A stretch of 64,000 bases of DNA from Nitrospirota bacterium (GCA_016208965.1 JACQXB010000004.1:12914-76913), one strand, 5' to 3'. Shown: positions 9,714-60,758, numbered from the stretch's first letter. Made by a program: numbers and translations. Notes: generated by a model from the sequence alone, not told the origin.

Positions 9714-9794
9714 AAAATGCAAAATTAAGGAGAATTTTTTATTCAACAATTTTGAATTTTAATTTTTAAATTTTAAATTCTCAGGGGGGATGTT

Positions 9795-11910: not shown

Positions 11911-13240
11911 AGTCACACCAAAAGGTTCGCTCCGCGGTGAGATTGTCCCTCCACCAGATAAATCTATCTCCCATAGGGCAGTGATACTTGGCTCTCTTTC
12001 AGAGGGGGAAAGCACCATAAAAAACTTTCTCCGTGCTGAAGACCCCATTAGAACAATTAAGGCATTTCAACAAATGGGTATTGAGATAACAGAAGTCAAA
12101 AGTCAAAAGTCAAAAGTCAAAAGTCAGAACACAGATTTAATAATTAATGGCAAAGGACTAACAGGGTTAAGAACGCCTCAGGATATTATAGACTGTGGGA
12201 ATTCAGGGACAACTATGAGGCTTTTGTGTGGAGTGCTTGCAGGTCAACCATTCCGAGCTGCACTTACAGGAGATGCATCTTTAAGAATTAGACCCATGCA
12301 GAGGGTTATTACACCCCTTACAGAGATGGGAGCAAGAATTACATCAGAGGCAAAGAGCTATCCTCCCCTTACTATTCATGGCGGAAGTTTAAGACCTATA
12401 TATTACAAATCTCCTGTAGCAAGTGCGCAGGTAAAATCCGCAATCCTTCTTGCAGGGCTTTATTGTGATGGAGTTACAAAAATCAGAGAGCCTGATAAAT
12501 CCCGTGACCATACTGAAAGGATGCTTAGGGCTCAGGGCGCAGAGGTTGAAATAAAAGACCTTGAGGTTAGTATCAAAGGCACCCTGAACCAGGAGCGGTT
12601 CAGGGGCAGGGCACACCTTAAGCCCTTAGATATAACAATCCCCGGAGATTTTTCATCTGCAGCGTTTTTTATTGTTGCAGGCATTATTGTGCCAGGGTCA
12701 GAGATATCAATTAAAAATGTTGGTATAAACCCAACAAGAACAGGGCTTTTAGATATTCTAAAAACGATGGGTGCAGAGATAAAGATTGAAAATGAACATG
12801 AACAATCAGGAGAGCCTGCTGCAGATTTATATGTAAAATACTCGCAACTTAAAGGGATAGATATAGAAGGCGATTTAGCACTCAGGGCTATTGATGAGTT
12901 TCCTATTATTTGCGTTGCTGCATCAGTTGCCTCTGGCATAACAAAGATAACAGGCGCAGGGGAGTTAAGGGTTAAGGAGTCAGATAGAATTGCCTCAATG
13001 GCAAAGGAACTAAGAAAGATGGGTGTCACTGTTGAAGAACTAAAAGATGGCATTATTATTGAGGGAAAAGACAGATTAAATTCTGCAATTATCCAGAGTC
13101 ATGGCGACCACAGGGTTGCAATGTCTATGGCAGTAGCAGGACTTTTTGCTCAGGGCGAGACAATTATTGAGGATACAGAATGTGTGAATACATCATTTCC
13201 GGGGTTTATAGAGATGTTAAAGAAACTGCAGAGGGGTTAA
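11897..13240 (+). CDS. aroA: 3-phosphoshikimate 1-carboxyvinyltransferase (EPSP synthase)
   Basis: PPDKSISHRAVILGSL, GNSGTTMRLL, RVKESDR. The ORF opens at 11831, but homology starts near the TTG at 11897 (MDVIKVTPKG), overlapping the tyrA stop. Confidence 0.93.
   Translation: MDVIKVTPKGSLRGEIVPPPDKSISHRAVILGSLSEGESTIKNFLRAEDPIRTIKAFQQMGIEITEVKSQKSKVKSQNTDLIINGKGLTGLRTPQDIIDCGNSGTTMRLLCGVLAGQPFRAALTGDASLRIRPMQRVITPLTEMGARITSEAKSYPPLTIHGGSLRPIYYKSPVASAQVKSAILLAGLYCDGVTKIREPDKSRDHTERMLRAQGAEVEIKDLEVSIKGTLNQERFRGRAHLKPLDITIPGDFSSAAFFIVAGIIVPGSEISIKNVGINPTRTGLLDILKTMGAEIKIENEHEQSGEPAADLYVKYSQLKGIDIEGDLALRAIDEFPIICVAASVASGITKITGAGELRVKESDRIASMAKELRKMGVTVEELKDGIIIEGKDRLNSAIIQSHGDHRVAMSMAVAGLFAQGETIIEDTECVNTSFPGFIEMLKKLQRG
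12093..12127. repeat. Heptamer tandem repeat AAGTCAA x5 inside aroA
   Basis: Read directly; translated as KSQKSKVKSQ in the aroA frame. Confidence 0.9.
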
Positions 13241-27603: not shown

Positions 27604-28020
27604 TCATGAAAACGGATTAATGATCTTGAGTTTTTTTTCAATGATCTGGCCGTCCTGCATGTCTTCCGTATAAAGCGTTGAACAGTTATTTTCCAATGCA
27701 ACAGCCAATATTAAACTGTCCCAATATGCGAAACCATTGAGTATGCTGATATCCATAGCCTTTATAACCGATGAGGAAAGGACGTCAACTACATTAAAAT
27801 TTGAAGATATTTCCAACCCCATTTGTCTCGCTTCCTCTTTTTCCTTCAATCCTTTTTTGACCAGGACATGAAAGAATTCTCCAAGAACCTGTGTGCTGAT
27901 GATAATATCTTCAAAATATTTATCAACAAGGCTCTTTATTGTTTCTGTTTTTTCTTTGTTTGAATCGTCAGCATACAGGTATACCCAGAGATTTGTATCT
28001 ACGAAAACCCTATCGTTCAT
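27604..28020 (-). CDS. PIN-domain toxin
   Basis: VFVDTNLWVY, GFAYWDSLILAVA, LYTEDMQDGQ. Confidence 0.85.
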   Translation of the reverse strand: MNDRVFVDTNLWVYLYADDSNKEKTETIKSLVDKYFEDIIISTQVLGEFFHVLVKKGLKEKEEARQMGLEISSNFNVVDVLSSSVIKAMDISILNGFAYWDSLILAVALENNCSTLYTEDMQDGQIIEKKLKIINPFS

Positions 28021-28231
28021 GCAATTCTTCTCTATTGAACTTGTAGTCTTTGGGTAGGGTTATAGCATGTTTTTTGACAAATTCAAAAAAAACTTTTTTA
28101 TCATTTATGGGGCTCTTAAGTTTTAAGTTTTTTTTGCCATATTTTGTTAAAAGATACTCATAGAAATCGATTAACTCCTTTTTCACTTCCTTGGGCAGAA
28201 TATCAATATCTATCTCTTTTAGTCTTGCCAT
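28010..28231 (-). CDS. Putative antitoxin (DUF2281-like) of the downstream PIN toxin
   Basis: 73 aa; overlaps the PIN gene start; LPKEVKKELIDFYEYLLTKY motif. Confidence 0.5.
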   Translation of the reverse strand: MARLKEIDIDILPKEVKKELIDFYEYLLTKYGKKNLKLKSPINDKKVFFEFVKKHAITLPKDYKFNREELHER

Positions 28232-28391
28232 ATATTTCCTCCTTTACCTCTGCTATTTTTATTGCCATAAAACCCCCTCTTGCCTTATTTTAGCACAATC
28301 TCTCAGCAAACCTCACATGGATTTTGACATCCCCCATGGAAACAAACAAGGGCATAAATCTAAGAGTAAATCTAAGAGGGACACAGAGCCT

Positions 28392-28512
28392 GTCTAAAAA
28401 CTATAATTCCATCAGACTGTCATTCCCCGACTTGATCGGGGAATCCAGTTTTTTCAATAGGTTCTGGATTGTCCAGTCAAGCTGGACAATGACAAATACT
28501 GAGTTTTTAGAC
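28392..28512. mobile_element. 121-bp MITE with 11-bp perfect TIR (GTCTAAAAACT) and an internal GTCATTC...AATGAC cloverleaf unit (28419-28493)
   Basis: TIRs at 28392-28402 and 28502-28512. The internal hairpins match the copy at 10888-10960 with compensatory stem changes. Confidence 0.7.
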
Positions 28513-28623
28513 AAGCTCCACATCCCATATTCTAAAAAATCTCCCTTTATTATCAAACAAGCTGTCTCCCATCCAAACTGAAGGTGTAAAAGGGGACGCA
28601 ACCCTTTAACCCATCAGAAGTAT

Positions 28624-29022
28624 TCAGATTAACCAGTTTTCTAACTTCAAATCTTCTATCCGCTCAAAATGAAAAACATTATTTGTGATCAAAATGCAAT
28701 CGTTGGATACGGCTACCGAGGCTATCAGAATATCGAAATCTTCGATCACATTACCCCTTGCTCTGAGATCTGTCTTGATCTTTCCAAAGAGTCTTGCAGA
28801 TTCATCGCTCTCAGACAATATAGCCAGGTTTCTCTTGAAGGTTTCTATGCGGTGCAGATTTGCATCAACTTTTTTTGAATTATAGGCGCCGAAATATAGC
28901 TCAGCCAATACGCTATACGACAATGCTAATGAATAGGCCCCAACTTCTTGAACCTTCTTCATCAATTGTTGATTGCCGTTCAAAAGATAAATACATGTAT
29001 TAGTGTCCAAAAGATACTTCAA
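28624..29022 (-). CDS. vapC: VapC PIN-domain toxin
   Basis: MKYLLDTNTCIYLL, DILIASVAV, LITNNVFHFERIEDLKLENW. Confidence 0.88.
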   Translation of the reverse strand: MKYLLDTNTCIYLLNGNQQLMKKVQEVGAYSLALSYSVLAELYFGAYNSKKVDANLHRIETFKRNLAILSESDESARLFGKIKTDLRARGNVIEDFDILIASVAVSNDCILITNNVFHFERIEDLKLENWLI

Positions 29023-29276
29023 AATATCTTCTCTGCCCTGTTGGTAGATTTCCTACTTGAATAAATATCCCTTATCTGCTCTTCAACTGACCTGTCATCT
29101 TCCCATGTGCCACAGACTGAGAGGAATTCTTCGGTTGTTTTTTTCTCATCAAATTCAGAAAGCATGATCTCGCTTCTCATGAAATGGATTATCCTTGCCA
29201 GTTTTTCCTGCGCTGGTGCAGGTAATGCCTGCATTTCTCTAAGCACCTTTTCTTCATAGACCGTTTTCGTATGCAT
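29019..29276 (-). CDS. Putative antitoxin of the downstream VapC
   Basis: 85 aa; 4-nt overlap with vapC; the family was not recognised. Confidence 0.5.
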   Translation of the reverse strand: MHTKTVYEEKVLREMQALPAPAQEKLARIIHFMRSEIMLSEFDEKKTTEEFLSVCGTWEDDRSVEEQIRDIYSSRKSTNRAEKIF

Positions 29277-29831
29277 AAAACCTCCTTTATAAATTTCTGC
29301 GCTTCAGATATGGCAGTCCCGGCAGATGCACTATCCAATTTTCTTGCCCTCTATTATAACATTGTTCTCATTTTTTACCAGTTCTATTTTATCAAAACGG
29401 TAATGTCAAAACTTCTGTGTAAATTCATTTAAGGGTTTAATTCTCCATTAAAAGTTAGAAATAAATAAATAATAGGGACACTTCCCATATTATTATATTT
29501 GCTGATTAATTTTTTCATATTCTATGTATGGTTCAAACCTTCACAGAATTGGGGTCTTGAATCTTGAATTTTCCTTTCATCGTCCTCGCTATCCCTTTCC
29601 TCCGAATAACGTTCCCCATGGGGAATTTCTTACTTATTTCAACCAAAAAACCATTCATAATCATCATGGCTGCCGACCCAGAACCATGTCACTGCATGAA
29701 ACAGGGGGTCACATCTTCATATATCATTTAATATCTCCTCGACCTTTTTGAAAATCGGAACTATTTTAACTTTCCTTATATCCGAAACCTTTTGATTACT
29801 CCCGATTTTATGCCTTTCGGTAAACTCTATT

Positions 29832-30263
29832 TTACCAAGCCATTCGTTTTATAAATTCACTGGCTGTATTAATATCAATCCCTGCATAAGTCTTCAGGTT
29901 TAATAGATGACTATCACCTGAAACAATAACAGTTGCCTGTGCCGATATAGCACATTCCAATACCCGATTATCGTCAGGGTCTTCTTTTATCACATTAATC
30001 GTATGCCCCGCTTCTACTAAAGTGACGAACAATGCAATCTTTGCAACTGCCTTTTCAACAGCGTATTCTTTGCCTTCAAGCTTTTTAGAGAACTTCTCCC
30101 TTTTTAAAACTCCCTCTAACTTGTTCAATATTTCCATTGATACAAAAAGATGAATTTCTTTTCTCTCAGATTTCTCAAGAATCCTGGCTTCATTACCGTT
30201 CCACAAAAGTCCTGAAATAAGGGTATTCGTATCAAGAACGACCTTTTTCAAAATTACCGTCAT
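29832..30263 (-). CDS. PIN-family toxin (TIGR00305-like)
   Basis: VVLDTNTLISGLLW start; D-rich C-terminal VSGDSHLL. Confidence 0.78.
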   Translation of the reverse strand: MTVILKKVVLDTNTLISGLLWNGNEARILEKSERKEIHLFVSMEILNKLEGVLKREKFSKKLEGKEYAVEKAVAKIALFVTLVEAGHTINVIKEDPDDNRVLECAISAQATVIVSGDSHLLNLKTYAGIDINTASEFIKRMAW

Positions 30264-30517
30264 CCTTTCTTCCTATATTTTTTTATCTCCTCAGCGACAT
30301 CATCGATCTTTAACTTTTCTTTTTTAGCCATCTTCCTGAATGGACCGGCAACTTCACTAAACGTCATATCTTTAAGAGACTTATAAACTCTCTTAAGGTA
30401 TATCGTCTCCGAATCAAAAAAAAGGTCAAATTCCATACCCTTTTTAAGTTTGAACTTATCGCAAACATTCTTAGGAAATTCAATCATACCGCTATCCATC
30501 AGTTTGACTTTTTCCAT
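30260..30517 (-). CDS. AbrB/MazE/SpoVT-fold antitoxin
   Basis: IEFPKNVCDKFKLKKGMEFDLFFD; overlaps the PIN gene start. Confidence 0.72.
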   Translation of the reverse strand: MEKVKLMDSGMIEFPKNVCDKFKLKKGMEFDLFFDSETIYLKRVYKSLKDMTFSEVAGPFRKMAKKEKLKIDDVAEEIKKYRKKG

Positions 30518-30540
30518 ATCTCTCCCTCCGCAATTTTTAG

Positions 30541-30572
30541 GGATGAAAAGGGACTCAACCCTTTTTCATCCT
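30541..30572. terminator. Strong 12-bp hairpin GGATGAAAAGGG/CCCTTTTTCATCC between two TA modules
   Basis: Read directly; lies between the MNT module and the abrB-PIN module. Confidence 0.4.
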
Positions 30573-30622
30573 CTAAACCAAGTTTTTCTCCGACACAAAA
30601 ACTTTTGTCTTATCAATAACCT

Positions 30623-30709
30623 CTACGAGTATCTCAACATCTCAACTGCCCGGTCCAGTCTGTTAAAGTCTTCTTTTAGCTCTCTTATCATTAAGGCTTC
30701 GGATTTCAT
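30623..30709 (-). pseudogene. Possible truncated HEPN partner of the MNT gene (28 codons)
   Basis: ATGA overlap with the MNT stop. MKSEALMIRELKEDFNRLDRAVEMLRYS*, then a stop. Assignment rests on position and a weak N-terminal resemblance. Confidence 0.3.
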
Positions 30710-30993
30710 AGTCTTACTCCTTCATGCAGCGCTATCTGCTTAAAAGTGTCTTCTTCTTTAAAGGTAGAGGAAATTATATCAAGCTTCTGTTCACCAAACT
30801 TTTCAAAATAATGCCATCTTATTGTGGCCTTTTCCTTCCAGCGTATTTTTCTATTCGATAGAACCATAATATCTATGTCTCCGCCCCTTTTTTTGTCATC
30901 TGCCCGTGAACCAAAGAGATAAACTACTGCGTCCGGTACAATAGCCAAAATCTCATTTTTCAGAAAATCTATTTGTTCACGTGAAATTCTCAT
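30706..30993 (-). CDS. Minimal nucleotidyltransferase (MNT, type VII TA antitoxin-like)
   Basis: LFGSRADDKKRGGDIDIMV (GS...DxD). Confidence 0.85.
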   Translation of the reverse strand: MRISREQIDFLKNEILAIVPDAVVYLFGSRADDKKRGGDIDIMVLSNRKIRWKEKATIRWHYFEKFGEQKLDIISSTFKEEDTFKQIALHEGVRL

Positions 30994-31278
30994 TTTTATT
31001 CAAGCCCTTTCCATTCCATGAACAAAGCCGCGACCTCCCGTGCTTTGCCGTTTATCCCCACCGCAAAAGACATTGTCATTAAAAGCCGTTGTAAACTATG
31101 CCCATCCACCCTTTTATTTTATCAAAATGACATGGGGAATGGACAGCAGTAATTGATTCTATAAAGCAAGGTTCCTTTTCACATATACGTCATGCCATAC
31201 AACGTGGTTTTTTTTCATGTCTTATAAAAATTGAACGCTGAACGCAGAGAGCATGGAGCAAAGCGTTTTAAATCTCAC

Positions 31279-31313
31279 TGCTCATTGCTCATTGCTTTTG
31301 CCTCATTGCTATT
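31279..31313. repeat. GCTCATT-type heptamer array (i)
   Basis: tgctcat tgctcat tgctttt gcctcat tgctatt, overlapping the stop of the TPR gene. Confidence 0.8.
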
Positions 31314-32187
31314 CCTCTATCCCCTTCCATTCAAAGAATAACTGCACTGCCATTTCCGCATCAGGGTTATCAGGCGCAATGCCTTTTATCACTTTCTTAT
31401 CCTTTGATATCCGCCAAGCTATCTCAAGCGCGGCAAAAAGATAGCTATTATAAAGCCGGGATAAGTTTGTGGGATGCATTGTCTCTGACATAATCTTTTT
31501 CCTGATATTTTCAGGAGAGGTCTGGTAGCTGTCGTCTATTTTTGCAAGTATCCTTGCCTGCTCAAGCGCCTCTCCTTTTCTGCCTGTAAGGAGGTAGTGC
31601 ATTGCAATCGCATACCTCATGGGCGCATTTACAGGAGCTGCGGCAACAGCCTTTGCAAATTCTTTTTCTGCAAGCCGGGCATTACTGATATTTCTGTCAT
31701 AAAGCTTTCCGAGCGCCAGATGATAATCAGGATTCGCAGGCTCAAGATAAACCGCTTTTTTAAGGTATCTCGCTGAGTTTTCAAAAGCCTCTTTGGCTGA
31801 TACGGCTCCGGCAGGAAGGGGTTCAGCAACAGCGTCCATGCTTTCTGCCCATCTTCCGAGCATTGAATATATATCAGACAGTCCCTTATGATAGATAGAC
31901 TTTGACGGAACAAGAGCGGATGCTTTTTTCAGGGATAAGAGGGCGTCATTGTAATCAGATATTGTATCACCTGAGATACCCTTCATATCAAAATATTCTG
32001 TGGATTTATCATCAAGGATATAAGCCACCCTGCTATGATAATAGTCTGCAATAAGCATTCTGACGGGAAACGAGAGCAGAACGGCAATAAACAAAGCAAT
32101 GAGCAATGAGTTAAAAGATAGCAATGAGGTTAAAGGCAGCCTCGTTGCTCGTTGCTCGTTGCTCGTTGCTCGTTGCTCATTGCTCAT
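31309..32187 (-). CDS. TPR-repeat protein with an N-terminal TM anchor
   Basis: TM LLIALFIAVLL; several TPR-like helices (YLEPANPDYHLALGKLY and others). The N-terminus MSNEQRATSNEQRAT is encoded by heptamer repeats. Confidence 0.7.
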   Translation of the reverse strand: MSNEQRATSNEQRATRLPLTSLLSFNSLLIALFIAVLLSFPVRMLIADYYHSRVAYILDDKSTEYFDMKGISGDTISDYNDALLSLKKASALVPSKSIYHKGLSDIYSMLGRWAESMDAVAEPLPAGAVSAKEAFENSARYLKKAVYLEPANPDYHLALGKLYDRNISNARLAEKEFAKAVAAAPVNAPMRYAIAMHYLLTGRKGEALEQARILAKIDDSYQTSPENIRKKIMSETMHPTNLSRLYNSYLFAALEIAWRISKDKKVIKGIAPDNPDAEMAVQLFFEWKGIEE

Positions 32188-32230
32188 TGCTCATTGCTCA
32201 TTGCTCATTGCTCGTTGCTCATTGCTCATT
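32096..32230. repeat. GAGCAAT/GCTCRTT heptamer array (ii): short forward part, then about 13 inverted-orientation units
   Basis: agcaatgagcaatgag at 32096-32111; ctcgttg/ctcattg units at 32141-32230. Confidence 0.9.
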
Positions 32231-32635
32231 TTACGCTTGATCACGTTGTTTCCTAATGGCTATTTTGAGACCACCTATTATCCGGGAGACCTCAATCGCC
32301 AGGTCGCTTATATCCTTAAACTCTTCTGATGTAATATATCCAACATCAAGGGCTGCATAAAGTTGCGAACGGAGTTCAGCGCAAGATGCCTTTGCAATAA
32401 CAATGAATTGATGAAATTCTGCTCTACTACCACGCTCAAAGCCTTCAGCAAGATTTGACATGATTGATACAGCGGCTCTTTGAATTTGTTCGCGCAGTCC
32501 AAAATCCCTTGAGAATGCTCCCTTTCCAGTCATATGGTAAACATGTTTTGTTAATTTTCTGGCCTTTTGCCATGCAACAAGATCCTCAAACTTTTCAACT
32601 TTCATTTTTCTTCCTACTCGTTGCTCATTGCTCAT
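32231..32635 (-). CDS. Four-helix-bundle protein (23S rRNA intervening-sequence protein / Avd-like family)
   Basis: [13 protein letters not shown]...[42 protein letters not shown]. The likely true start is MKVEKF at 32605; the first 10 codons are heptamer-repeat sequence. Confidence 0.85.
32607..32634. repeat. GCTCRTT heptamer array (iii)
   Basis: ctcgttg ctcattg ctcattg cttgccc. Confidence 0.8.
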
Positions 32636-34190
32636 TGCTTGCCCGCCGGTCTCTTGGAGGGCTCATTACTCTTTGCTCTATGTTCAAGGTTGCATATGTT
32701 AACGCTGCTATTACAGTCAGGAGCAAAGCATTTGCCGGAATTCGCATGTTGAAATCCGTAAAACTGTGAACTGCTATTGCTACGCATGAGGCAAGCCCGG
32801 ATGCAGCCATGCACTTCACAAAATTATTATGCCTCTGACGCCATGCCTTTATAATCTTATAGAAAAAAAAGAAGAGCATCGTAATGACAATCATAAACCC
32901 TGCGATGCCTGTATCAGTAAAAATCTCTATATAGTCATTATGCGCATGCTCGTACAAGAATCGCGAGCGTCCAGTTTGATACTGAAGGTATATGTTCTCA
33001 AATGTACCGAGACCTGTCCCGAATACAGGGAAGTCCCTGACCATGTTAATTGTATCTTTCCAGATATCCGTCCGAGCTATTTTGCCTTCTTCTCCTATCT
33101 CTTCAAATCTGTCTTCTATTCTGTCCCAGCCTGCAATTAAAACCACTGATAATATCAGAATTCCTGCCATAGCAATAACGCCTGTTTTTTTTCTTAATGT
33201 TCTTCTGGTGCGGATTAGCAATGTGAAAAAGAGCATAGATGCTGTAAACCCTATTATCCCTCCCCTTGAAAGGCTTATGAACAAGACACCAGTCATTCCC
33301 ATAACAGCAAGAGACAGAAGGGTAATCGGCATAAGACTGCCGCTGACTGAGAGATTGGCAATCCTCTTGCTTAATGATAGATCAGGCAGTTCCTTTATTG
33401 TTGATGTCTTATAAAGGAGAAGCCCAATCGCCAGCGGTATTGCCATCTCCATGTATCCTGCAAAATGAGCGTGGCCTATATAGGGCCCCCAGATGTGACC
33501 CATATTTGAATTCAGACCTTCGCTCACAGGGTAAAACCAGAAAAGCCTGCCGTTCCATGTCATCTTCTGAACCACTGCAAAAACCGCAAGAAAACAACCC
33601 ATGTAAACTATGGCACGGGCAAGGCTGTTTACCTGCGGCTTTGTTTTATAGTGGTTAATTATCACCAGAAAAATTACAGTGTAAGCAGTGAGCTTGAAGA
33701 TATCATCTATTGTTGCAGACTGATAAATGCTTATGGTGCGCCATGTGCCTGCCATATCACCCGCAAATGTCTTATATAGCCTGCTTGTGGAAGGTGATAA
33801 CAGAGAGAGCAGATAGTCAGGCAAGGGGATAATCTGAAAGACTGCAATTAATATAAGGGCAGCAGGAAAAATGAGAATGCTCATTGCTCGTTGCTCATTG
33901 CTCATTGCTCGTTGCTCATTGCTCGTTGTTGCTCTTTGCTCATTGCTCTTTGCTCGTTGTATCAGCCATGCGCCGAATATTATGAATGCCATTATCTCCA
34001 TAACGGCTATTGACCAGTCTTGAACAGTTCCAAAAGCAAGAGGGGTGAATATCAAAAGCAGGACAATGCCCTTCTCTATCACAGCATTAAAAAATCCCCC
34101 CTCACCCCCCTTTAGTAAAGGGGGGATGGGGGGATTTTCTTTAAAGAGATTATTACTCTTCTTTAAAAAATTCATACTCTCTGAAGCCAT
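32625..34190 (-). CDS. O-antigen ligase-like (Wzy_C) membrane protein
   Basis: [20 protein letters not shown] motif and about 11 TM helices. The start is uncertain because a palindromic element lies in the first 35 codons. An internal SNEQRA repeat stretch is present. Confidence 0.75.
33879..33960. repeat. GCTCRTT heptamer array (iv), about 11 units, inside the ligase-like ORF
   Basis: Translated as [24 protein letters not shown] between TM helices. Confidence 0.9.
34089..34138. repeat. Palindromic AAAATCCCCC...GGGGGATTTT element
   Basis: aaaaatcccccctcacccccctttagtaaaggggggatggggggatttt. Confidence 0.9.
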
Positions 34191-34948
34191 CTCTTTTTTT
34201 GCCCGACAGGCTCAATGAGTTCAGGCAGGGAAACATGCCTGCCTTCTATGATTGCGGCAGGTATGGATGTAACAAGGGCATATGCCCTTTCCTTTCCTAT
34301 AACATCGCCTGCCATTCGCACTGCATGAGACAGCAGCGGCTGCCTGTATGTGGCAGAATGCGCATCACTGGCGATCACATGAGCAAGATTATGTTTAAGA
34401 AGGTATATGCTGAATTTCTGTATATCCTCACCCAGATCACCGGTTATGCTCATTGCCGTAACCTGCACCATAACGCCTTTTTTTACAACATCATACAGCG
34501 AATTAGGGTGTTCCAGAAACCACAAATTTCTCTCAGGATGGGTGATTACAGGAATTGTCCCTGAATTCAAAATAGAGAGCAGGAACATATCCCATCCGGG
34601 CGGCGCTGACGCAGCCGGAAACTCTGCGAGGAAGTATCTGCCTGTTCTGTTTATTGTCAGGTATTCTTCTTTTTTCAGATAAGCCGGCAGTTCAGGCGTA
34701 ACACTTACATCAGCGCCGGGCAGTATCCTGACATCAATGCCCCTTTCTTTTGCTTTAGCGCCAAGCTCATCTATAAGCCTGAAAACTTTTTCAGAACTGT
34801 TTTCATAGGTGCCGGGATTGAAATGAGGGGTTGCGACTATGGTCTTTATGCCGTCTGCCGAAGCAATGCGGCACATATCAACTGCCTCATCTATTGTCTC
34901 AGGCCCGTCATCAATGCCGGGGAGGATATGGCAGTGGAGGTCTATCAT
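34172..34948 (-). CDS. cpsB: PHP-family protein-tyrosine phosphatase (CpsB/YwqE type)
   Basis: MIDLHCHILPGIDDGP, ATPH, HPER, ASDAH metal-binding motifs. Confidence 0.9.
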   Translation of the reverse strand: MIDLHCHILPGIDDGPETIDEAVDMCRIASADGIKTIVATPHFNPGTYENSSEKVFRLIDELGAKAKERGIDVRILPGADVSVTPELPAYLKKEEYLTINRTGRYFLAEFPAASAPPGWDMFLLSILNSGTIPVITHPERNLWFLEHPNSLYDVVKKGVMVQVTAMSITGDLGEDIQKFSIYLLKHNLAHVIASDAHSATYRQPLLSHAVRMAGDVIGKERAYALVTSIPAAIIEGRHVSLPELIEPVGQKKRWLQRV

Positions 34949-37149
34949 GCCTTTTTCTTCTTACTGTCCTTTTCGCCTGTATAATAATCATGGTCATAGT
35001 AAGGGTAATAATATGAGCTGCTTTTTGTCATGGCAACCTTGTTAAGCACAACACCAAGCACCTTTGCATTTGCGCCTGTCAGAGATTGGCATGCCTTCGC
35101 TATTATGTCCCTGCCGGTAACCCCTCCCCACACAACCACAATGACGCCGTCTGCAAGTTTTGACAATATAAGCGAGTCTGAAAAAACCATCATTGGCGGA
35201 GAATCAATTATAATGCGGTCGTATTTCCCCCGCAGCAGAGTCAGCAGTTCTTTCATCTTGTTGGAGCCAAGCAGGTCTGACGGATTCGGTGCCACTGTCC
35301 CGCCTGTAATTATATCTAAATTGGGGAATCCATCCACTGTCTTGATTGCAGTAGAAAGGCTCTCATTCCTTGCTATTATATCGGTGAGTCCTGTTGTGTT
35401 GTCAGAGTTGAATAGTTTATGGAGATTGTGCCTTCTCATATCACCGTCTATAAGAATCGCTTTCTCGCCCATCTGCGCCATTGCAATGGCAATATTGGCA
35501 GCTGTTGTTGTCTTGCCTTCATCAATAACCGTGCTTGTGACAAGGATGACCTGTGGAGGTTTTTCCGCTGTAGAGAGCATTATGCCTGTGCGTACTGTCC
35601 TATATGACTCAGCCACTGCTGATTTTGGGTCTAATGATATATACAGGGGGCCCTTTTCCTTTGCCAGAGGCACAAGACCCAAAAAAGGCAGTCCGAGCGC
35701 CTTATCAATATCCTCTGTTGTCTTTATGGAGTCATCCATATATTCTATGAAGAACGCCGCAAGGATACCTCCAAAAAACCCGACTATTCCTGATAGAAGC
35801 AGATTCAGCAGCTTTTTAGGTTTTACAGGTGATTTAGGTATAACAGCACCGTCAACTATCTGGGAATTTGATACATTGATTCCGCTTGAGAGAGACGCTT
35901 CCTGAAGTTTCCTGAGAAGAAGCTCATAAAACTGTTTATTGCTGCCTGATTCTCCGGCAAGCACATTAAACTCTATTGCCTTGCGGTTCAGGTCAAGAAC
36001 TTCAAGCTTCTGCTCCTCTATGGTTCTCCTCAGCGATGTCTCCCTGTTCATGGCAATCTCATAATCAGTATTTGCCGCGCTCAGCATCTTCTTTGCCTCT
36101 GCAATTATGTTCTTCTGCACCATCTCAAGCTCGGATGCTGATTTTACTATGCTGGGATGTTTGGGTCCGTATCTGTCTGACGACTCGGAAATCTTCTTCT
36201 TTAATGTGAGTTCCTCATTCCTTAAACCCTGAATCACCATGTTATTCATAATATCCGGAACGGTTGTAAGCAGTTCAGGCATGTCAATAACAGACTTTAT
36301 CTGTTTATATTTTACCTCTGCCTCCTGCCTCTTTGTCTCTGCCTGAACAAGCTGGGAAACAAGTTCCTGAAGTTTCTGCGTGATTACATTCTCCTTGGAC
36401 TCAAATGATACTATGCCTTTGCCTTCCCTGTATTTCTGGAGTTCTTTTTCGGTTTCTTCCACCTTTGCCTTTGATTCATTCACCCTTGAGGAAAGCCACT
36501 CAACAGAGGCCATGAAAGGCTCTATGCGTATATCCAGATTATGCTCTATGTAAGCGCCTGCCGCGCCTGTAGCCATAACTGCGGCTACCACAGGGTTTTC
36601 AGAATTATAGTTAATCTTCATAATGTTATCCGCCTTGCCGACCTCAACCTCTATCTCCTCAAGAATTATATCTGTGAGATCAGGGTCAAGCTCCTGCTGA
36701 ATTGCAATATTAGGGAATGGAGACTGCGATTTTTCCCCGGGGAATAAAGTTTCTATGGCGCCTTTAATCTTCCTGCCCAGAAGAGGTATAAGGCTGTTAA
36801 TCCTCTTATCCTTTTTTTCGAGATAAAAGGGGTTCTTGTCAATCTGCATCTTCCTTACAACCCTGTCTGCAAATGCCCTGCTGGCTAATATCTCCTTCTG
36901 GGTATTGTAGTATTCTGTAGGGTCCTTCATACGGATGAATGCCCCCCCGCCTTCTGTAAAGGTCATGGTCTGATTGCTCTCAAGGTCAACCAGCAACCGT
37001 GCTGTGCCCTTAAATATAGGGGTTGCCGTGAATGAATATAGGGCAACAATGCCGACTACAACAGCGAAGAATGTTATCGCAATGCGCCTACGTTTTAAAA
37101 GCACCCGCCAGTAGTCCCGCAGATGTATCTCATCGTCTATTGCCTTCAT
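34945..37149 (-). CDS. wzc: Polysaccharide co-polymerase fused to a BY-tyrosine kinase (Wzc/GumC-EpsG type)
   Basis: N-terminal Wzz domain with TM, long coiled coil, second TM, Walker A VIDEGKTTTAANIA, DGDMRR, tyrosine-rich tail SSSYYYPYYDHDYYTGE. Confidence 0.9.
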   Translation of the reverse strand: MKAIDDEIHLRDYWRVLLKRRRIAITFFAVVVGIVALYSFTATPIFKGTARLLVDLESNQTMTFTEGGGAFIRMKDPTEYYNTQKEILASRAFADRVVRKMQIDKNPFYLEKKDKRINSLIPLLGRKIKGAIETLFPGEKSQSPFPNIAIQQELDPDLTDIILEEIEVEVGKADNIMKINYNSENPVVAAVMATGAAGAYIEHNLDIRIEPFMASVEWLSSRVNESKAKVEETEKELQKYREGKGIVSFESKENVITQKLQELVSQLVQAETKRQEAEVKYKQIKSVIDMPELLTTVPDIMNNMVIQGLRNEELTLKKKISESSDRYGPKHPSIVKSASELEMVQKNIIAEAKKMLSAANTDYEIAMNRETSLRRTIEEQKLEVLDLNRKAIEFNVLAGESGSNKQFYELLLRKLQEASLSSGINVSNSQIVDGAVIPKSPVKPKKLLNLLLSGIVGFFGGILAAFFIEYMDDSIKTTEDIDKALGLPFLGLVPLAKEKGPLYISLDPKSAVAESYRTVRTGIMLSTAEKPPQVILVTSTVIDEGKTTTAANIAIAMAQMGEKAILIDGDMRRHNLHKLFNSDNTTGLTDIIARNESLSTAIKTVDGFPNLDIITGGTVAPNPSDLLGSNKMKELLTLLRGKYDRIIIDSPPMMVFSDSLILSKLADGVIVVVWGGVTGRDIIAKACQSLTGANAKVLGVVLNKVAMTKSSSYYYPYYDHDYYTGEKDSKKKKA

Positions 37150-45343: not shown

Positions 45344-46268
45344 TACTCACAGCATCTTTTACTACATCAATCTTTACAGGTAATGTCCCAAAATAGTCTC
45401 CGTCTATCTGGACATGGACATTGCCCTTAGAGGATATTTCAAGCTCTGAGAATTTTCCATAGAAGACATCTTTAAAATTTAAATGCCTTTTCATAATAAC
45501 GCCAAACACAAATCTGAGCAGGTCCATCCTCGTACTGCCTTTAAAAAGGCAGAGGTCAAGCGTTGGCTCTGTAAGGGATGCCCGTGGGGTTACTTTAAAA
45601 TAACCACCATAACAGCTTGCCTTACTAACAACTGCTGTATATCCTGTAGCTACACCCTCTGGAACCTTAATTTCAATTAAAGGCGGATTATATTTTATCA
45701 GGCTATTAACCCCTGAAATGATATGCGCACCCTTGCCTGATATTCTCTTGATATTCTCATTTAACCTAAAAACTGCTTCGCCATCAAACCCTATGCCCGC
45801 CATTAAACAGAAGTGACGAGTGACGAGTGACGAGCGACGAGTAATAACTATCCTTCCGAGTGATACCTTCCGTGGTGTGCCTGTTAATGCCGCATTAACT
45901 GCCTTTTCAATACGCTCTGGAATGCCGAGTTCTTTGGCTAAGACATTTGTTATTCCAACAGGAAGTAAGGCAAGCGGGATGTCCTTCCCTTTCTGGGCAT
46001 ATCCTTCTGATGAGAGTACGCCGTTTATGACTTCATTGAAAGTACCGTCTCCTCCTGCAACAATAATGAGGTCGGTCTTTGTTCCCCTATGAATTGCCTC
46101 AACTGATTCCTTTGCAAACCGGGTTGCGTCACCTTTTTTTTGTGTGATGAATGTTGAAAGCGTGACCTTATCTTTTAATAATTTCTGAGCCTTCTCTATT
46201 GACCTTAGCGCCCCGCCTCCTGCAATAGGGTTTGCAATAAGCCTGACCTTCACGGAGCAAAAATTCAT
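45333..46268 (-). CDS. Diacylglycerol/lipid kinase family protein (YegS/BmrU-like)
   Basis: IIVAGGDGTFNEVINGV, LPVGITN motifs. Confidence 0.85.
   Translation of the reverse strand: MNFCSVKVRLIANPIAGGGALRSIEKAQKLLKDKVTLSTFITQKKGDATRFAKESVEAIHRGTKTDLIIVAGGDGTFNEVINGVLSSEGYAQKGKDIPLALLPVGITNVLAKELGIPERIEKAVNAALTGTPRKVSLGRIVITRRSSLVTRHFCLMAGIGFDGEAVFRLNENIKRISGKGAHIISGVNSLIKYNPPLIEIKVPEGVATGYTAVVSKASCYGGYFKVTPRASLTEPTLDLCLFKGSTRMDLLRFVFGVIMKRHLNFKDVFYGKFSELEISSKGNVHVQIDGDYFGTLPVKIDVVKDAVSIVW
45813..45840. repeat. Heptamer tandem repeat GTGACGA x3 + GCGACGA inside the lipid kinase gene
   Basis: Read directly; translated as RRSSLVTRH on the minus strand. Confidence 0.9.
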
Positions 46269-53856: not shown

Positions 53857-54582
53857 ATGATAGTAATACCCGCAATAGACATCAAAGATGGTAAATGCGT
53901 AAGACTTCTTCAGGGTAGAAAGGAAGAAGTCACAGTTTATTCTGAAGACCCTGTATTTATAGCAAAACAATGGGTAAACCTTGGCGCAGAGTTACTTCAT
54001 GTTGTAGACCTTGATGGAGCATTTACAGGCAAACAGAAAAACTCTGAGGTAATTACGGCAATGAGAAAGGCAATCAATATCCCCATTCAGGTCGGGGGCG
54101 GTATAAGGAATTTAGAGGGGATTGAGCGTCTTATAGCTTCTGGTATTGACAGAGTAATACTCAGCACTGTAACTATTGAGAATCCAGAGGTTGTAAAAGA
54201 GGCATGCAAAAAGTACCCAGGGCAGATACTGGTTAGTATTGATGCCAAAGGTGGTCTCGCTGCTGTAAAAGGCTGGGTTGAGGTCACTGGAGTTGACGCA
54301 AAGGGGCTTGCCTTAAAAATGCAGGAATATGGTATAGCAGGAATAATCTATACTGATATTTCAAAAGATGGAATGCTTACAGGGCCTAATATAGAAGCAA
54401 TAAGGGAAATGGTTGAAAATCTGAAAATCCCTGTTATTGCATCAGGTGGCGTATCATCAATTAAGGACATAAAAAGACTTGCAGAGATTAAGAGAATCTG
54501 GGGTGTGATAACAGGAAAAGCATTGTATGAAGGAACTTTGGACTTAAAAGAAGCAATAAAAATCACGATGCAGGATGCATGA
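53857..54582 (+). CDS. hisA: ProFAR isomerase
   Basis: IPAIDIKDGKCVRL, VGGGIR, ASGGVSS. The last codons (TMQDA) are heptamer-repeat sequence. Confidence 0.93.
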   Translation: MIVIPAIDIKDGKCVRLLQGRKEEVTVYSEDPVFIAKQWVNLGAELLHVVDLDGAFTGKQKNSEVITAMRKAINIPIQVGGGIRNLEGIERLIASGIDRVILSTVTIENPEVVKEACKKYPGQILVSIDAKGGLAAVKGWVEVTGVDAKGLALKMQEYGIAGIIYTDISKDGMLTGPNIEAIREMVENLKIPVIASGGVSSIKDIKRLAEIKRIWGVITGKALYEGTLDLKEAIKITMQDA

Positions 54583-54657
54583 TACAAGATTGAAAACAAA
54601 TCACAATCATAATGAATTTTAAAATTAGATATCATGTATCGTGTATCGTGTATCATG
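54567..54657. repeat. Two heptamer arrays (GATGCAG GATGCAT GATACAA GATTGAA; TATCATG TATCGTG TATCGTG TATCATG) at the hisA 3' end and in the hisA-hisF spacer
   Basis: Arrays at 54567-54594 and 54630-57, in opposite orientation to each other. Confidence 0.85.
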
Positions 54658-54665
54658 GAGGTTAA

Positions 54666-60651: not shown

Positions 60652-60664
60652 TTAAAAATAGCAC

Positions 60665-60737
60665 GATTCATGATACACGATACATGATTCATGATTCATG
60701 ATGAAAATTTTCCTATCCTGTATCTTGTATCATGCAT
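60665..60737. repeat. Two opposed heptamer arrays (GATWCAY x6, then TATCNTG x3) between secF and recJ
   Basis: Arrays at 60665-60706 and 60714-60734. Confidence 0.85.
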
Positions 60738-60758
60738 CAGTTGATTTACTCTGGTTTT

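What the first reader, a model, noticed from the sequence alone, without database searches (positions are those of the whole stretch)
31279..33960. GAGCAAY heptamer arrays (SNEQRAT peptide) bracket a four-helix-bundle gene and a TPR gene and interrupt the O-antigen-ligase-like gene
Four arrays of the same 7-mer lie within 2.7 kb, all in one orientation apart from a short inverted segment at 32096-32130. They are at 31279-31313, 32096-32230 (about 13 units), 32607-32634 and 33879-33960 (about 11 units). They flank the TPR gene and the 23S-IVS/Avd-like four-helix-bundle gene exactly. They provide the annotated ATG and first codons (MSNEQRAT...) of both genes and the last codons of the ligase-like gene (RRASNEQ*). 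They also form an in-frame [23 protein letters not shown] loop inside the ligase-like gene. Units of the ATGAGCA type carry an ATG every 7 nt, so starts occur in all three frames. The T versus C variant decides whether a TGA follows. Copy-number change could therefore switch start-codon usage or N-terminal length, and homologous recombination between arrays could excise or invert the bracketed genes.
Basis: partly seen in the sequence, partly recalled or inferred. Interest (0 to 1): 0.7.

Follow-up and report, generated by a model that had tools for sequence, protein, structure and literature searches.

The report
Heptamer-repeat arms around a four-helix-bundle gene
The 7-base repeat arrays are real and mark the insertion of a small four-helix-bundle gene, of the kind first found inside 23S rRNA intervening sequences, between the two halves of a polysaccharide polymerase/ligase gene; across many bacterial phyla relatives of this gene sit between such repeat arrays in inverted orientation, a link I found described only for the Coxiella rRNA intervening sequence.

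Summary
GAGCAAY heptamers (read on the minus, coding strand) form five arrays between 31274 and 33960: 25 two-unit hits against 0.11 expected.

- The TPR gene is not a passenger. It is the ancestral C-terminal half of the Wzy_C "ligase"; many homologues are one 750-840 aa fusion.
- The variable element is the four-helix-bundle (4HB, PF05635) gene. It is absent from that junction in five related operons, and in one of them lies at a different junction, after the TPR gene.
- In 81 4HB genes from more than 10 phyla, tandem NNNTGAG heptamers lie upstream in 65% and the reverse-complement CTCANNN array downstream in 54%. The opposite polarity is almost never seen. The unit sequence differs between loci but matches between the two arms.
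- This is the layout of the Coxiella 23S rRNA intervening sequence: heptamer repeats, a terminal stem, an RNase III cut.
- The window copy is atypical: array, 4HB gene, 13-unit direct array, then an inverted arm inside the TPR coding sequence, giving a -50 kcal/mol hairpin over the TPR start.
- The ligase loop array is a hypervariable in-frame site shared with relatives.

Phase variation is unsupported. Similar in-frame arrays sit in the ArgRS, AroA and RecJ genes.

The parts
33876..33960 (-). In-frame GAGCAA(Y/A) heptamer array (about 11 units plus one 3-nt irregularity). It encodes the [24 protein letters not shown] loop that follows the second hydrophobic (putative transmembrane) segment of the Wzy_C protein.
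   Evidence: The homologous site in P0002-P0007 is filled with other heptamer-derived peptides, about 10 to 95 aa long.
32625..34190 (-). Wzy_C / O-antigen-ligase-family gene (521 aa as the longest ORF). It corresponds to the N-terminal half of an ancestrally fused Wzy_C-TPR protein.
   Evidence: Pfam PF04932, E 4.8e-26. Homologues of 750-840 aa carry Wzy_C plus TPR.
32615..32691 (-). Upstream array of the 4HB gene. It has 3.3 clean GAGCAAY units (32615-32640), an embedded 26-mer (32636-32661) and degenerate units (32662-32691). It supplies the ligase tail ...[12 protein letters not shown] and the ligase stop codon (TGA within an ATGA).
   Evidence: The 26-mer also occurs in the ligase loop of L088.
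32231..32605 (-). Four-helix-bundle gene (23S rRNA intervening-sequence protein family). The probable start is ATG 32605 (MKVEKF...), preceded by AGGAAG. The longest ORF extends to 32635, inside the array.
   Evidence: Pfam PF05635, E 6e-36. PDB 2GSC XCC0516, E 2e-14. Most tblastn alignments to homologues begin at query residues 10-12.
32141..32230 (-). Direct array of 12.9 GAGCAAY units, starting 2 nt after the 4HB stop codon. The last T unit supplies the TPR ATG (32187). The five C units that follow keep the TPR frame open (MSNEQRATSNEQRAT).
32094..32130 (-). Inverted arm (CTCATTG-type units on the coding strand), lying inside the TPR coding sequence that encodes the N-terminal hydrophobic (putative transmembrane) segment (LTSLLSFNSLLIA).
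   Evidence: It has a 17-nt exact complement to the array upstream of the 4HB gene.
32088..32234 (-). Predicted RNA hairpin formed by the 13-unit array and the inverted arm. It encloses the TPR start codon.
   Evidence: MFE -49.9 kcal/mol, z -4.56, 0 of 200 shuffles as stable. The same pairing appears in the 601-nt fold.
31309..32187 (-). TPR gene (292 aa). It corresponds to the C-terminal half (hydrophobic segment plus TPR) of the ancestral Wzy_C-TPR protein.
   Evidence: Weak Pfam TPR hits. 57% identity to P0035 residues 502-763, E 7e-101.
31240..31313 (-). Degenerate GAGCAAT-type array directly after the TPR stop codon, a loop (GAGATTTAAAACGC) and a weak inverted partner.
   Evidence: The fold is not better than shuffles (z -0.42). 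The homologous element is present in L210 and flipped in L087.

Best explanation
The GAGCAAY arrays are the repeat arms of a cassette that resembles a 23S rRNA intervening sequence (IVS) and carries a four-helix-bundle (PF05635) gene. The cassette has landed in an exopolysaccharide operon (wzc-cpsB-Wzy_C-TPR), at the junction between the Wzy_C 'ligase' and its TPR partner, two genes that were ancestrally one. The same heptamer family also fills two nearby repeat-tolerant sites: the ligase loop and the spacer after the TPR gene.

Shown here:
1. The 4HB gene is the variable part of the locus. It is absent from the ligase-TPR junction in L087, L088, L006 and L210, present after the TPR gene in L006, and absent altogether in L088.
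2. Across phyla, close relatives of this 4HB gene are flanked upstream by tandem NNNTGAG heptamers and downstream by the reverse-complement array. The polarity is strict, and the unit sequence co-varies between the two arms.
3. The unit type follows the lineage of the 4HB gene across host phyla.
4. In the window, the 13-unit direct array and the inverted arm form a very stable predicted hairpin over the TPR start codon.

Inferred:
- On the polycistronic mRNA the arrays act as they do in the Coxiella IVS, forming double-stranded stems that are RNase III or processing/stability sites.
- Because each T unit carries ATGA, the array stops any incoming reading frame within three units and offers a restart codon in every frame. 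This would make the insertion tolerable: the ligase gains only ...SNEQ*, and the TPR protein restarts as MSNEQRAT....
- The arrays change length by slippage and exchange sequence by recombination or gene conversion. Inside coding sequence only frame-preserving states survive.
- The window's unusual direct-direct-inverted order is what a single crossover of an array-bearing 4HB segment into the 5' arm of an existing ORF-less array hairpin would produce.
For: - Synteny.
- Fused homologues: and the alignment.
- Period-7 score of 10 or more in 55% of upstream and 44% of downstream 150-nt flanks of 77 4HB genes. The figure is 1.7% for random windows and 11% for other intergenic gaps in the same loci.
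- An exact inverted match of at least 10 nt between the flanks occurs in 49% of loci, against 2% of random pairs, 12% of permuted loci and 7% for direct matches.
- Polarity: tandem NNNTGAG upstream in 53 of 81 and CTCANNN downstream in 44 of 81; the reverse arrangement occurs in 2 and 1.
- The commonest unit is identical between the arms in 20 of 35 loci, against 5.2 +/- 1.9 under permutation.
- In whole-cassette MFE folds the two flanks pair with a median of 33 bp, against 11 in the control, p 6e-8.
- The CAATGAG unit occurs in 6 of 13 loci whose 4HB is at least 67% identical to the window's, against 2 of 64 for more distant ones, p 1.7e-4.
- Window hairpin: -49.9 kcal/mol, z -4.6.
- Precedent: the Coxiella 23S IVS has 2-3 strain-variable tandem heptamers (GACAGAT) in front of the S23p ORF, a 28-bp terminal stem, and an RNase III cut at the first repeat (PMC4990558).
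- 4HB genes inserted between cas genes (PMC3936711) and strain-unique 4HB genes in Arthrospira whose best hits are in Chloroflexi (PMC8700078) fit an accessory, transferable gene.
Against: - The window copy does not show the typical enclosure. No base pairs join its upstream and downstream flanks in the MFE fold, and the array directly downstream is direct, not inverted.
- The reverse association is weak. Of 120 metagenome contigs with at least 4 perfect GAGCAAT units, only 3-4 carry a 4HB gene. Arrays are a much broader phenomenon than the cassette, and 4HB genes may simply insert into, or be retained in, pre-existing arrays.
- GAGCA-type arrays occupy the ligase loop in relatives that lack a nearby GAGCAAT-flanked 4HB gene (L087, L088, L089). 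The local arrays therefore need not derive from the cassette.
- Complementary arms could reflect DNA-level terminal repeats rather than RNA function.
- I have no transcript, RNase III or translation data.
- Many of the 81 loci are orthologous within families (Pyrinomonadaceae, Nitrospira), so they are not independent.
Confidence: 0.55

Rival explanations
1. The arrays are selectively neutral, slippage-prone microsatellites of the STRR (cyanobacterial short tandemly repeated repetitive sequences) or TAACTGA kind. This lineage generates them everywhere. The arrays near the 4HB gene have no function, and 4HB genes are found in arrays only because both accumulate in dispensable spacers.
For: - Period-7 arrays with many different units occur across the window, including in-frame copies in the ArgRS, EPSP synthase and RecJ genes.
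- 11% of other intergenic gaps in 4HB-bearing genomes also carry arrays.
- GAGCAAT arrays are abundant in metagenomes without 4HB genes.
- Unit number and unit sequence drift freely between relatives.
Against: - Neutral slippage does not explain the strict polarity (NNNTGAG upstream, CTCANNN downstream; 53 and 44 against 2 and 1).
- It does not explain why the unit matches between the two arms (20 of 35 against 5.2 expected).
- It does not explain the 4- to 5-fold enrichment over other intergenic gaps.
- It does not explain why the unit type follows the 4HB lineage across phyla.
Confidence: 0.22
2. This is a purely DNA-level mobile cassette. The inverted heptamer arrays are terminal repeats, or homology pads, used for insertion, excision and inversion by recombination. 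RNA structure and translational stop/restart are by-products.
For: - The 4HB gene shows presence/absence and positional differences between orthologous operons.
- The TPR-downstream hairpin is flipped in L087.
- A 26-mer is shared between different array sites in different genomes.
- 4HB identity of 70-78% across phyla, with the same unit type.
- In the window, direct repeats flank the 4HB gene, as after a single-crossover integration (direct match 23 nt).
Against: - No recombinase or transposase lies in or beside the cassette.
- I did not look for target-site duplications.
- The arms differ in length and sequence between close 4HB relatives, which is unlike protein-recognised terminal repeats.
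- In the one studied case, Coxiella, the heptamer region is an RNase III site on RNA.
Confidence: 0.15
3. This is the first reader's model: a contingency (phase-variation) locus. Gain or loss of heptamer units switches start-codon use or frame of the ligase, 4HB and TPR genes, and so switches surface polysaccharide.
For: - A 7-nt unit is not a multiple of 3, and the arrays lie in and between genes for a surface polysaccharide.
- T units give ATG and TGA in all three frames.
- Unit number differs between related genomes.
Against: - The tracts are interrupted by T, C and A variants and by a 3-nt irregularity.
- Every orthologue found is in frame.
- The same kind of in-frame array sits in essential genes of the window.
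- No variant copy numbers were visible in four independent runs, although those contigs are uninformative inside the arrays.
Confidence: 0.06
4. Assembly artefact: the repeats caused a chimeric join, and the 4HB gene is not really between the ligase and TPR genes.
For: - The window appears to come from a metagenome-assembled genome.
- All independent short-read contigs end inside the arrays.
Against: - Logan contigs from four runs join the ligase body, its tail, the upstream array, the whole 4HB gene and the first units of the downstream array in one piece.
- The array-to-TPR join is in frame, with the TPR hydrophobic segment continuing.
- L211 (68% relative) also ends its ligase in a GAGCAAT array.
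Confidence: 0.02

Closest known systems
23S rRNA intervening sequences carrying an S23p / four-helix-bundle ORF (Coxiella burnetii, Leptospira; PMC4990558)
   Same: - The protein family is the same (PF05635).
- Tandem heptamer repeats lie directly upstream of the ORF, and their number varies between strains.
- Complementary terminal sequences are present.
- The element is regarded as selfish and horizontally acquired.
- In the 81 related loci the arms pair across the ORF, as an IVS stem does.
   Different: - This element is not in an rRNA gene. Rfam reports no rRNA, or any other family, in the whole 64-kb window at gathering thresholds. It lies between protein-coding genes of a polysaccharide operon.
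- The arms are long multi-unit arrays.
- In the window the ORF is not enclosed by the stem; it is followed by a local hairpin.
- RNase III processing is untested here.
TAACTGA heptamer direct repeats of Beggiatoaceae, cyanobacteria and Bacteroidetes (MacGregor 2015, PMC4679880)
   Same: - Tandem 7-nt units of NNNNTGA type.
- Mostly intergenic, in forward orientation just upstream of start codons.
- Stop codons occur in all frames in the forward orientation, and the reverse orientation is translatable.
- The phylogenetic distribution is patchy and suggests transfer.
- They are often mixed with other heptamers.
   Different: - The unit sequence differs (GCAATGA here).
- The terms 'intervening sequence', 'IVS', 'S23' and 'four helix' do not occur in that paper's main text.
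- Here the arrays also lie in frame inside coding sequences.
Cyanobacterial STRR heptamer repeats (from my own knowledge: Mazel et al. 1990, J Bacteriol; not read here)
   Same: Families of tandem heptamers, dispersed across the genome, with different units within one genome and no known function.
   Different: The taxon differs (a Nitrospirae metagenome-assembled genome) and so do the units. I know of no documented link between STRR and 4HB genes.
Phase-variable simple-sequence contingency loci (Haemophilus, Neisseria, Campylobacter; from my own knowledge)
   Same: Non-triplet tandem repeats in or beside surface-polysaccharide genes, which could in principle shift the reading frame.
   Different: - The tracts here are imperfect.
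- All orthologues are in frame.
- The same kind of array occurs in essential housekeeping genes.
- No on/off variants were observed.
REP/BIME-type intergenic palindromic elements (from my own knowledge)
   Same: ORF-less hairpins lie between co-transcribed genes in the window (hisA/hisF, RecJ/SecF). This is the position where REP elements affect mRNA stability.
   Different: - These stems are built from tandem heptamers whose unit sequence differs between the loci examined, rather than from one conserved palindrome.
- No REP-associated transposase (RAYT) was found among the neighbouring genes I scanned.
Avd, the accessory protein of diversity-generating retroelements (DGRs)
   Same: Same four-helix-bundle superfamily, with a weak bAvd Pfam hit.
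   Different: - The bAvd score is 23.4, below the cut-off of 40.
- None of the eight neighbouring ORFs scanned between 29.8 and 37.1 kb matches a reverse transcriptase; template and variable repeats were not searched for.

Membership tests
23S rRNA IVS element with S23p ORF | Encodes a PF05635 four-helix-bundle protein | tested here: met
   PF05635 E 6e-36, 123 bits against a cut-off of 33.8. PDB 2GSC E 2e-14. The sequence contains [13 protein letters not shown], which fits the family motif RxxxSxxxNxxE quoted in PMC3936711.
23S rRNA IVS element with S23p ORF | Inserted in a helix of the 23S rRNA gene | tested here: not met
   No Rfam family reaches its gathering score anywhere in the 64-kb window. 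The flanking genes are Wzy_C and TPR.
23S rRNA IVS element with S23p ORF | Complementary termini that form a stem enclosing the ORF | tested here: inconclusive
   - An inverted arm with a 17-nt exact complement to the upstream array exists at 32094-32130.
- In the MFE fold it pairs with the adjacent 13-unit array instead, and 0 pairs join the two flanks.
- In 66 of 81 related loci at least 15 pairs join the flanks.
23S rRNA IVS element with S23p ORF | Tandem heptamer repeats directly upstream of the ORF (Coxiella) | tested here: met
   3.3 GAGCAAY units end 11 nt before ATG 32605. The Coxiella description is in PMC4990558.
23S rRNA IVS element with S23p ORF | Excision from the precursor RNA by RNase III | not testable with these tools
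   This needs transcript mapping or an in vitro cleavage assay.
NNNNTGA-type heptamer direct repeats (TAACTGA / STRR class) | Tandem 7-nt units at several loci of a genome, mostly intergenic, in forward orientation upstream of ORFs, with stops in all forward frames | tested here: met
   T units give a TGA every 7 nt. The arrays precede the 4HB and TPR starts. GAGCAAT arrays are found in at least 120 metagenome contigs, mostly between genes.
NNNNTGA-type heptamer direct repeats (TAACTGA / STRR class) | Same unit sequence as a described family (TAACTGA, CCCCAGT, and so on) | tested here: not met
   The unit is GAGCAAY, equivalent to GCAATGA.
Phase-variable contingency locus | Uninterrupted repeat tract whose length varies within a population and toggles the frame or promoter | tested here: inconclusive
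   - The tracts are interrupted (80-96% matches).
- Length varies between genomes, but every copy is in frame.
- Variation within a population cannot be seen in contigs that break at the arrays.
DGR accessory protein Avd | Adjacent reverse transcriptase and a template/variable repeat pair; bAvd profile above its cut-off | tested here: not met
   bAvd scores 23.4 bits, below the cut-off of 40. The neighbours are Wzy_C, TPR, CpsB, Wzc, a nucleotidyltransferase and a PIN-domain gene. Template and variable repeats were not searched for.
Wzy_C-TPR fusion protein (for the ligase and TPR genes) | A Wzy_C domain followed by a hydrophobic segment and a TPR domain in one polypeptide | tested here: not met
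   The gene is split here (521 aa plus 292 aa) and in all close Nitrospirae relatives examined. Both halves are clearly homologous to the fused forms.

The most novel reading that the evidence does not exclude
Four-helix-bundle (PF05635) genes with their polar, inverted heptamer arrays may form a single, widely transferred class of IVS-type cassette that colonises operons as well as rRNA genes across more than 10 phyla. In this reading the 4HB protein, a pentameric toroid in PDB 2GSC, recognises its own heptamer arms on RNA or DNA, to promote its spread or to control processing. The far more numerous ORF-less heptamer arrays and hairpins, including in-frame ones in coding sequences, would be its landing pads or footprints. 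This would give a function to the long-enigmatic IVS proteins and to STRR/TAACTGA-type heptamer repeats together.
Probability: 0.15. Interest if true: 0.85.

Novelty: new variant of a known kind. Interest (0 to 1): 0.6.

Why it matters
Three long-known oddities have no accepted function: 23S rRNA intervening sequences, the 'S23p/four-helix-bundle' proteins they encode, and bacterial heptamer tandem repeats (STRR, TAACTGA).

This locus and the 81 related loci link the three. The same protein family sits between polar, mutually complementary heptamer arrays inside ordinary operons in many phyla. The one experimentally studied IVS (Coxiella) has the same heptamers at its RNase III site.

If the link holds, IVSs are a special case of a general hairpin-bounded cassette, and the question becomes testable by RNase III mapping, reporter fusions and binding of the protein to the repeats.

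There is also a practical point. The arrays explain why annotated start and stop codons here (MSNEQ..., ...SNEQ*) are repeat-derived, and why assemblies of these genomes break at such sites.

Tried and rejected
- Rfam. The E-value mode on 30900-34300 gave only a sub-threshold Yfr10 hit (26 bits against 43) on the G/C palindrome at 34079-34165. The gathering mode found nothing in the whole window.
- The promoter and terminator scan found no more than chance near the arrays.
- RNA duplex energies between flanks did not discriminate: all controls were about -40 to -50 kcal/mol (an earlier run timed out). I replaced them with exact inverted-match lengths, unit matching and whole-cassette folds.
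- Exact-protein look-up of the 521-aa ligase ORF found nothing, because the deposited protein starts five residues later (P0001).
- Logan contigs from four runs all break inside the arrays, so they give no copy-number information.
- A metagenome scan for the 26-mer shared between array sites found nothing.
- The reverse test, starting from GAGCAAT arrays and looking for 4HB genes, found only 3-4 of 120 contigs with a 4HB gene. I therefore rejected the idea that the arrays are in general cassette-derived.
- I rejected the view that the TPR gene is a cassette passenger (and the synteny calls).
- I rejected the view that the 4HB insertion split the fused gene. Relatives without the insertion are already split at the same linker.
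- Literature searches for a described link between PF05635 genes outside rRNA and heptamer arrays returned nothing beyond the Coxiella IVS paper. The library searched is open-access only.


Full report

Yes. Read on the minus strand, which is the coding strand of every gene in this region, the unit GAGCAAY forms tandem arrays at five places:
- 31274-31313: degenerate, directly after the TPR stop codon.
- 32141-32230: 12.9 units, 96% matches.
- 32615-32640: 3.3 units.
- 33876-33960: 11.3 units.
- 32094-32130: a short block in the opposite orientation.

A two-unit pattern with at most one mismatch hits 25 times against 0.11 expected from shuffles.

The window has 40% G+C. Period-7 runs are the most numerous of all periods from 4 to 12 (25 runs, 615 matched positions), and their unit sequences differ from place to place. 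The GAGCAAY unit itself occurs only in this 2.7-kb stretch of the window.

**2. The genes**

Pfam identifies, all on the minus strand:
- Wzc-type tyrosine kinase, 34945-37149.
- CpsB phosphatase, 34172-34948.
- Wzy_C / O-antigen-ligase-family protein, 32625-34190.
- 23S rRNA intervening-sequence (IVS) protein, a four-helix bundle (4HB), 32231-32635 as the longest ORF. PF05635, E 6e-36. It also matches PDB 2GSC XCC0516 at E 2e-14.
- TPR protein, 31309-32187.

An NCBI contig labelled 'MAG: Nitrospirae bacterium' encodes the same ligase, minus five N-terminal residues (P0001).

The conserved 4HB protein starts at ATG 32605 (MKVEKF...), with AGGAAG about 5 nt upstream. Most tblastn alignments to homologues begin there. 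The [10 protein letters not shown] extension of the longest ORF is therefore probably untranslated array.

For the TPR gene, the only ATG ahead of its N-terminal hydrophobic (putative transmembrane) segment is the one made by the last T-type unit (32187). The five units after it are all C-type, which contain neither ATG nor TGA.

**3. The TPR gene is not a passenger; the 4HB gene is**

Many homologues of the ligase are 750-840 aa proteins with Wzy_C followed by TPR repeats (for example P0023, P0026, P0035, P0076). The window's TPR protein aligns to residues 502-763 of P0035 at 57% identity, E 7e-101. Ligase and TPR are therefore two halves of an ancestrally single gene.

| Locus | Ligase identity | Ligase-TPR junction | After the TPR gene |
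|---|---|---|---|
| L087 | 79% | TPR follows directly (ATGA overlap) | ORF-less heptamer hairpin, then APS kinase |
| L210 | 77% | a short degenerate GAGAGCA array ends the ligase, then TAATG starts TPR | hairpin, then APS kinase |
| L088 | 67% | overlapping | APS kinase overlaps TPR; no 4HB gene on the contig |
| L006 | 64% | overlapping | a 4HB gene between GTTATTA-type arrays, then APS kinase |
| L211 | 68% | contig ends in a GAGCAAT array at the ligase stop | not reached |
| L089 | 58% | contig ends in a long G(A/C)GCAKR array | not reached |

Two conclusions follow. The split of ligase and TPR predates the 4HB insertion. And the 4HB gene is present, absent or differently placed in otherwise collinear operons.

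**4. The ligase loop**

The site after the second hydrophobic segment is filled with heptamer-derived peptide in every close homologue:
- window: SNEQRAT...
- P0002: AEGREPKAESRERRAE.
- P0003: NGEQKAEGREQRAK.
- P0006: GAKRIEQGAEGREQGAK.
- P0005: a 37-aa version.
- P0007: about 95 aa, encoded by about 250 nt of G(A/C)GCAKR units.

All are in frame. The window's array reads as three SNEQRA(T/M) cycles plus one 3-nt irregularity. This is a tolerated, hypervariable, repeat-filled loop shared by the clade, not a disruption.

A 26-mer embedded in the arrays (CCCTCCAAGAGACCGGCGGGCAAGCA) lies in the ligase tail in the window (32636-32661) and in the ligase loop in L088. The whole hairpin downstream of the TPR gene is reverse-complemented in L087 relative to the window and L210. 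Array sites therefore exchange and flip sequence.

**5. The wider pattern**

I scanned one genome per species for close relatives of the 124-aa 4HB protein. The query excluded the array-encoded extension, so the arrays could not bias the selection. The scan returned 80 loci at 50-78% identity from Desulfobacterota, Nitrospirota, Nitrospinota, Acidobacteriota, Chloroflexota, Planctomycetota, Deinococcota, Proteobacteria, Verrucomicrobiota and others.

Their flanks are strikingly uniform. Upstream are tandem heptamers of the form NNNTGAG: GAGCAAT, GAGGACT, GAGTGAT, GAGTGCT, GAGCGAT and so on. Downstream is the reverse complement: CTCATTG, AGTCCTC, CTCATCA, AGCACTC.

| Measure | 4HB flanks | Controls |
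|---|---|---|
| Period-7 score of 10 or more, 150-nt flank | 55% upstream, 44% downstream (77 genes) | 1.7% random windows; 11% other intergenic gaps in the same loci |
| Exact inverted match of 10 nt or more between the two 100-nt flanks | 49% | 2% random pairs; 12% permuted loci; 7% direct matches |
| Polarity | NNNTGAG upstream 53 of 81; CTCANNN downstream 44 of 81 | reverse polarity 2 and 1 |
| Commonest unit identical between arms | 20 of 35 | 5.2 +/- 1.9 under permutation (maximum 13 in 2000) |
| Base pairs between flanks in the whole-cassette MFE fold | median 33 | median 11 with the downstream flank reverse-complemented; p 6e-8 |
| CAATGAG unit present | 6 of 13 loci with 4HB at least 67% identical to the window's | 2 of 64 more distant loci; p 1.7e-4 |

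A few loci use units without TGAG (GTTYAAG, AAGTCCATA, GGCGAGA), yet their arms still match. The six loci that share the CAATGAG unit come from several different host lineages (at least three phyla), so the unit travels with the gene.

Many of the loci are orthologous within families, so these counts overstate the number of independent events.

**6. The reverse association is weak**

At least 120 metagenome contigs carry four or more perfect GAGCAAT units. Most arrays lie between genes, often joined to arrays of other heptamers. Only 3-4 contigs have a 4HB gene beside the array, although the profile used detects even the divergent L006 protein at E 6e-13. The three clear cases all obey the polarity rule.

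Heptamer arrays are therefore a much broader phenomenon, and 4HB genes are a minority occupant that is very faithful to them.

In the window itself:
- ORF-less heptamer hairpins lie between hisA and hisF (z -5.5) and between RecJ and SecF (z -4.3).
- In-frame arrays lie in the ArgRS, EPSP synthase, YegS-like kinase and RecJ genes.

**7. The window copy is atypical**

Its order is: three upstream units, the 4HB gene, a 13-unit array in the same orientation, a 12-nt loop, then an inverted arm that is part of the TPR coding sequence.

The 13-unit array and the inverted arm fold into a hairpin of -49.9 kcal/mol (z -4.6) that contains the TPR start codon. No pairs join the upstream and downstream flanks.

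This direct-direct-inverted order is what a single crossover between an array-bearing 4HB segment and the 5' arm of a pre-existing array hairpin would produce. That is an inference. In 1 of every 3 registers, a crossover between the two direct arrays that leaves only C units downstream would fuse ligase and TPR in frame (...RRASNEQRAT...RLPL...). This follows directly from reading the sequence.

**8. Comparison with what is known**

- **Coxiella 23S rRNA IVS.** This is the closest precedent. Its S23p (PF05635) ORF is preceded by two or three strain-variable tandem heptamers (GACAGAT). Its termini form a 28-bp stem. RNase III cuts at the first repeat (PMC4990558).
- **TAACTGA repeats** (PMC4679880). 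They share the NNNNTGA form, the forward orientation upstream of ORFs and a patchy distribution. The terms for intervening sequences and four-helix-bundle proteins do not occur in that paper.
- **4HB genes outside rRNA.** PF05635 genes are known to sit between cas genes (PMC3936711) and to be strain-specific with cross-phylum best hits (PMC8700078).
- **The general link.** I found no paper that describes inverted heptamer arrays around PF05635 genes outside rRNA. The library searched is open-access only, so this is absence of evidence.

**9. Mechanism**

Best supported (confidence 0.55): this is an IVS-like 4HB cassette whose heptamer arms
- (a) stop incoming translation in any frame and offer ATGA restart codons, which makes insertion between coupled genes tolerable;
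- (b) form double-stranded RNA that is processed or stabilises the message; and
- (c) drift by slippage and exchange sequence by recombination.

Steps (a) and (b) are inferred from the sequence and from the Coxiella precedent. The comparative data show only (c), together with the variable presence of the 4HB gene and the arm-to-arm co-variation.

The main rivals are a neutral microsatellite with coincidental co-location (0.22), a purely DNA-level cassette (0.15), phase variation (0.06) and misassembly (0.02).

**10. Verdict**

The arrays are real and not chance. The switching idea has no support.

The finding is a new variant of a known kind: an IVS-type four-helix-bundle element outside rRNA. 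Its value is the cross-phylum rule it exposed.

Noticed in passing
window 4910-4941, 12090-12129, 45812-45841, 59964-59999: Tandem heptamer arrays with other units (AAGATGC, AAGTCAA, AGTGACG, CTGYATC on the + strand) lie inside ORFs whose reading frame stays open through them. The ORFs are arginyl-tRNA synthetase, EPSP synthase, a YegS/diacylglycerol-kinase-like protein and RecJ. The Pfam alignments are consistent with extra residues in each. So frame-preserving heptamer insertions occur in essential genes of this genome.
   Followed up: partly
window 54560-54662 and 60658-60742 (also 9696-9786, weak): ORF-less hairpins whose two arms are heptamer arrays in opposite orientation. One lies between hisA and hisF (-31.2 kcal/mol, z -5.5) and one between RecJ and SecF (z -4.3). 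They look like empty versions of the 4HB cassette.
   Followed up: partly
window 34096-34124 (minus strand), inside the 5' end of the ligase coding sequence: A terminator-like G/C-run palindrome (CCCCCTTTACTAAAGGGGGGTGAGGGGGG followed by a T run) encodes [13 protein letters not shown]. The independent Logan contig L001 ends exactly here. Some relatives lack the segment (P0003). There is a weak, sub-threshold Rfam Yfr10 hit over it.
   Followed up: no
window 6331-6602: A dense block of 17-, 21- and 38-nt tandem repeats (CAAACAAAGGGGGTCAA...) is followed by their inverted copies (CCCCCTTTGTTTTT...), just upstream of the ORF at 6575-7597. This is a different repeat family, again in a direct-plus-inverted arrangement.
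   Followed up: no
window 32636-32661; L088 3487-3512: An identical 26-mer (CCCTCCAAGAGACCGGCGGGCAAGCA, encoding SPPRDRRAS) is embedded in heptamer arrays at two different sites of the ligase gene in two genomes: the C-terminal tail here and the loop in L088. The proteins are only 67% identical. It was absent from the metagenome collection scanned.
   Followed up: partly
window 31240-31313; L087 5255-5325; L210 2465-2520: The small array hairpin after the TPR stop codon is conserved in relatives, but the whole element is reverse-complemented in L087. The loop reads GTTTTAAAT there and ATTTAAAAC in the window and L210.
   Followed up: partly
window 27604-30993: Downstream of the TPR gene, relatives have APS kinase. 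The window instead has a run of small toxin-antitoxin-like genes: three PIN-domain ORFs (27604-28020, 28624-29022, 29832-30263), an 85-aa ORF with no Pfam match (30260-30517) that abuts the third PIN ORF and may be its partner, and a minimal nucleotidyltransferase (30706-30993).
   Followed up: no
L089 (GCA_030595105.1) 2440-2590, 2745-3000, 4225-4351: A relative carries very long G(A/C)GCAKR heptamer arrays at three positions of the same gene: upstream, in the loop (about 250 nt, about 95 aa in frame) and at the C-terminus, where the contig ends.
   Followed up: partly
L090-L209 (metagenome contigs): Perfect GAGCAAT arrays occur in at least 120 contigs of varied G+C content. They usually lie right before a start codon or right after a stop codon, and are often concatenated with arrays of other heptamers (GAACAAT, GAGTATT, TTAGCAA, TACCAAT, GGGCTAT). 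Many contigs end in the arrays.
   Followed up: partly
L006 8096-8127; L088 6220-6345: Further GTTATTA/TAATAAC-type and CTCATTG/CGCTMTG-type arrays fill the spacers after the APS kinase gene in relatives. Several unit families can therefore coexist in one operon.
   Followed up: no
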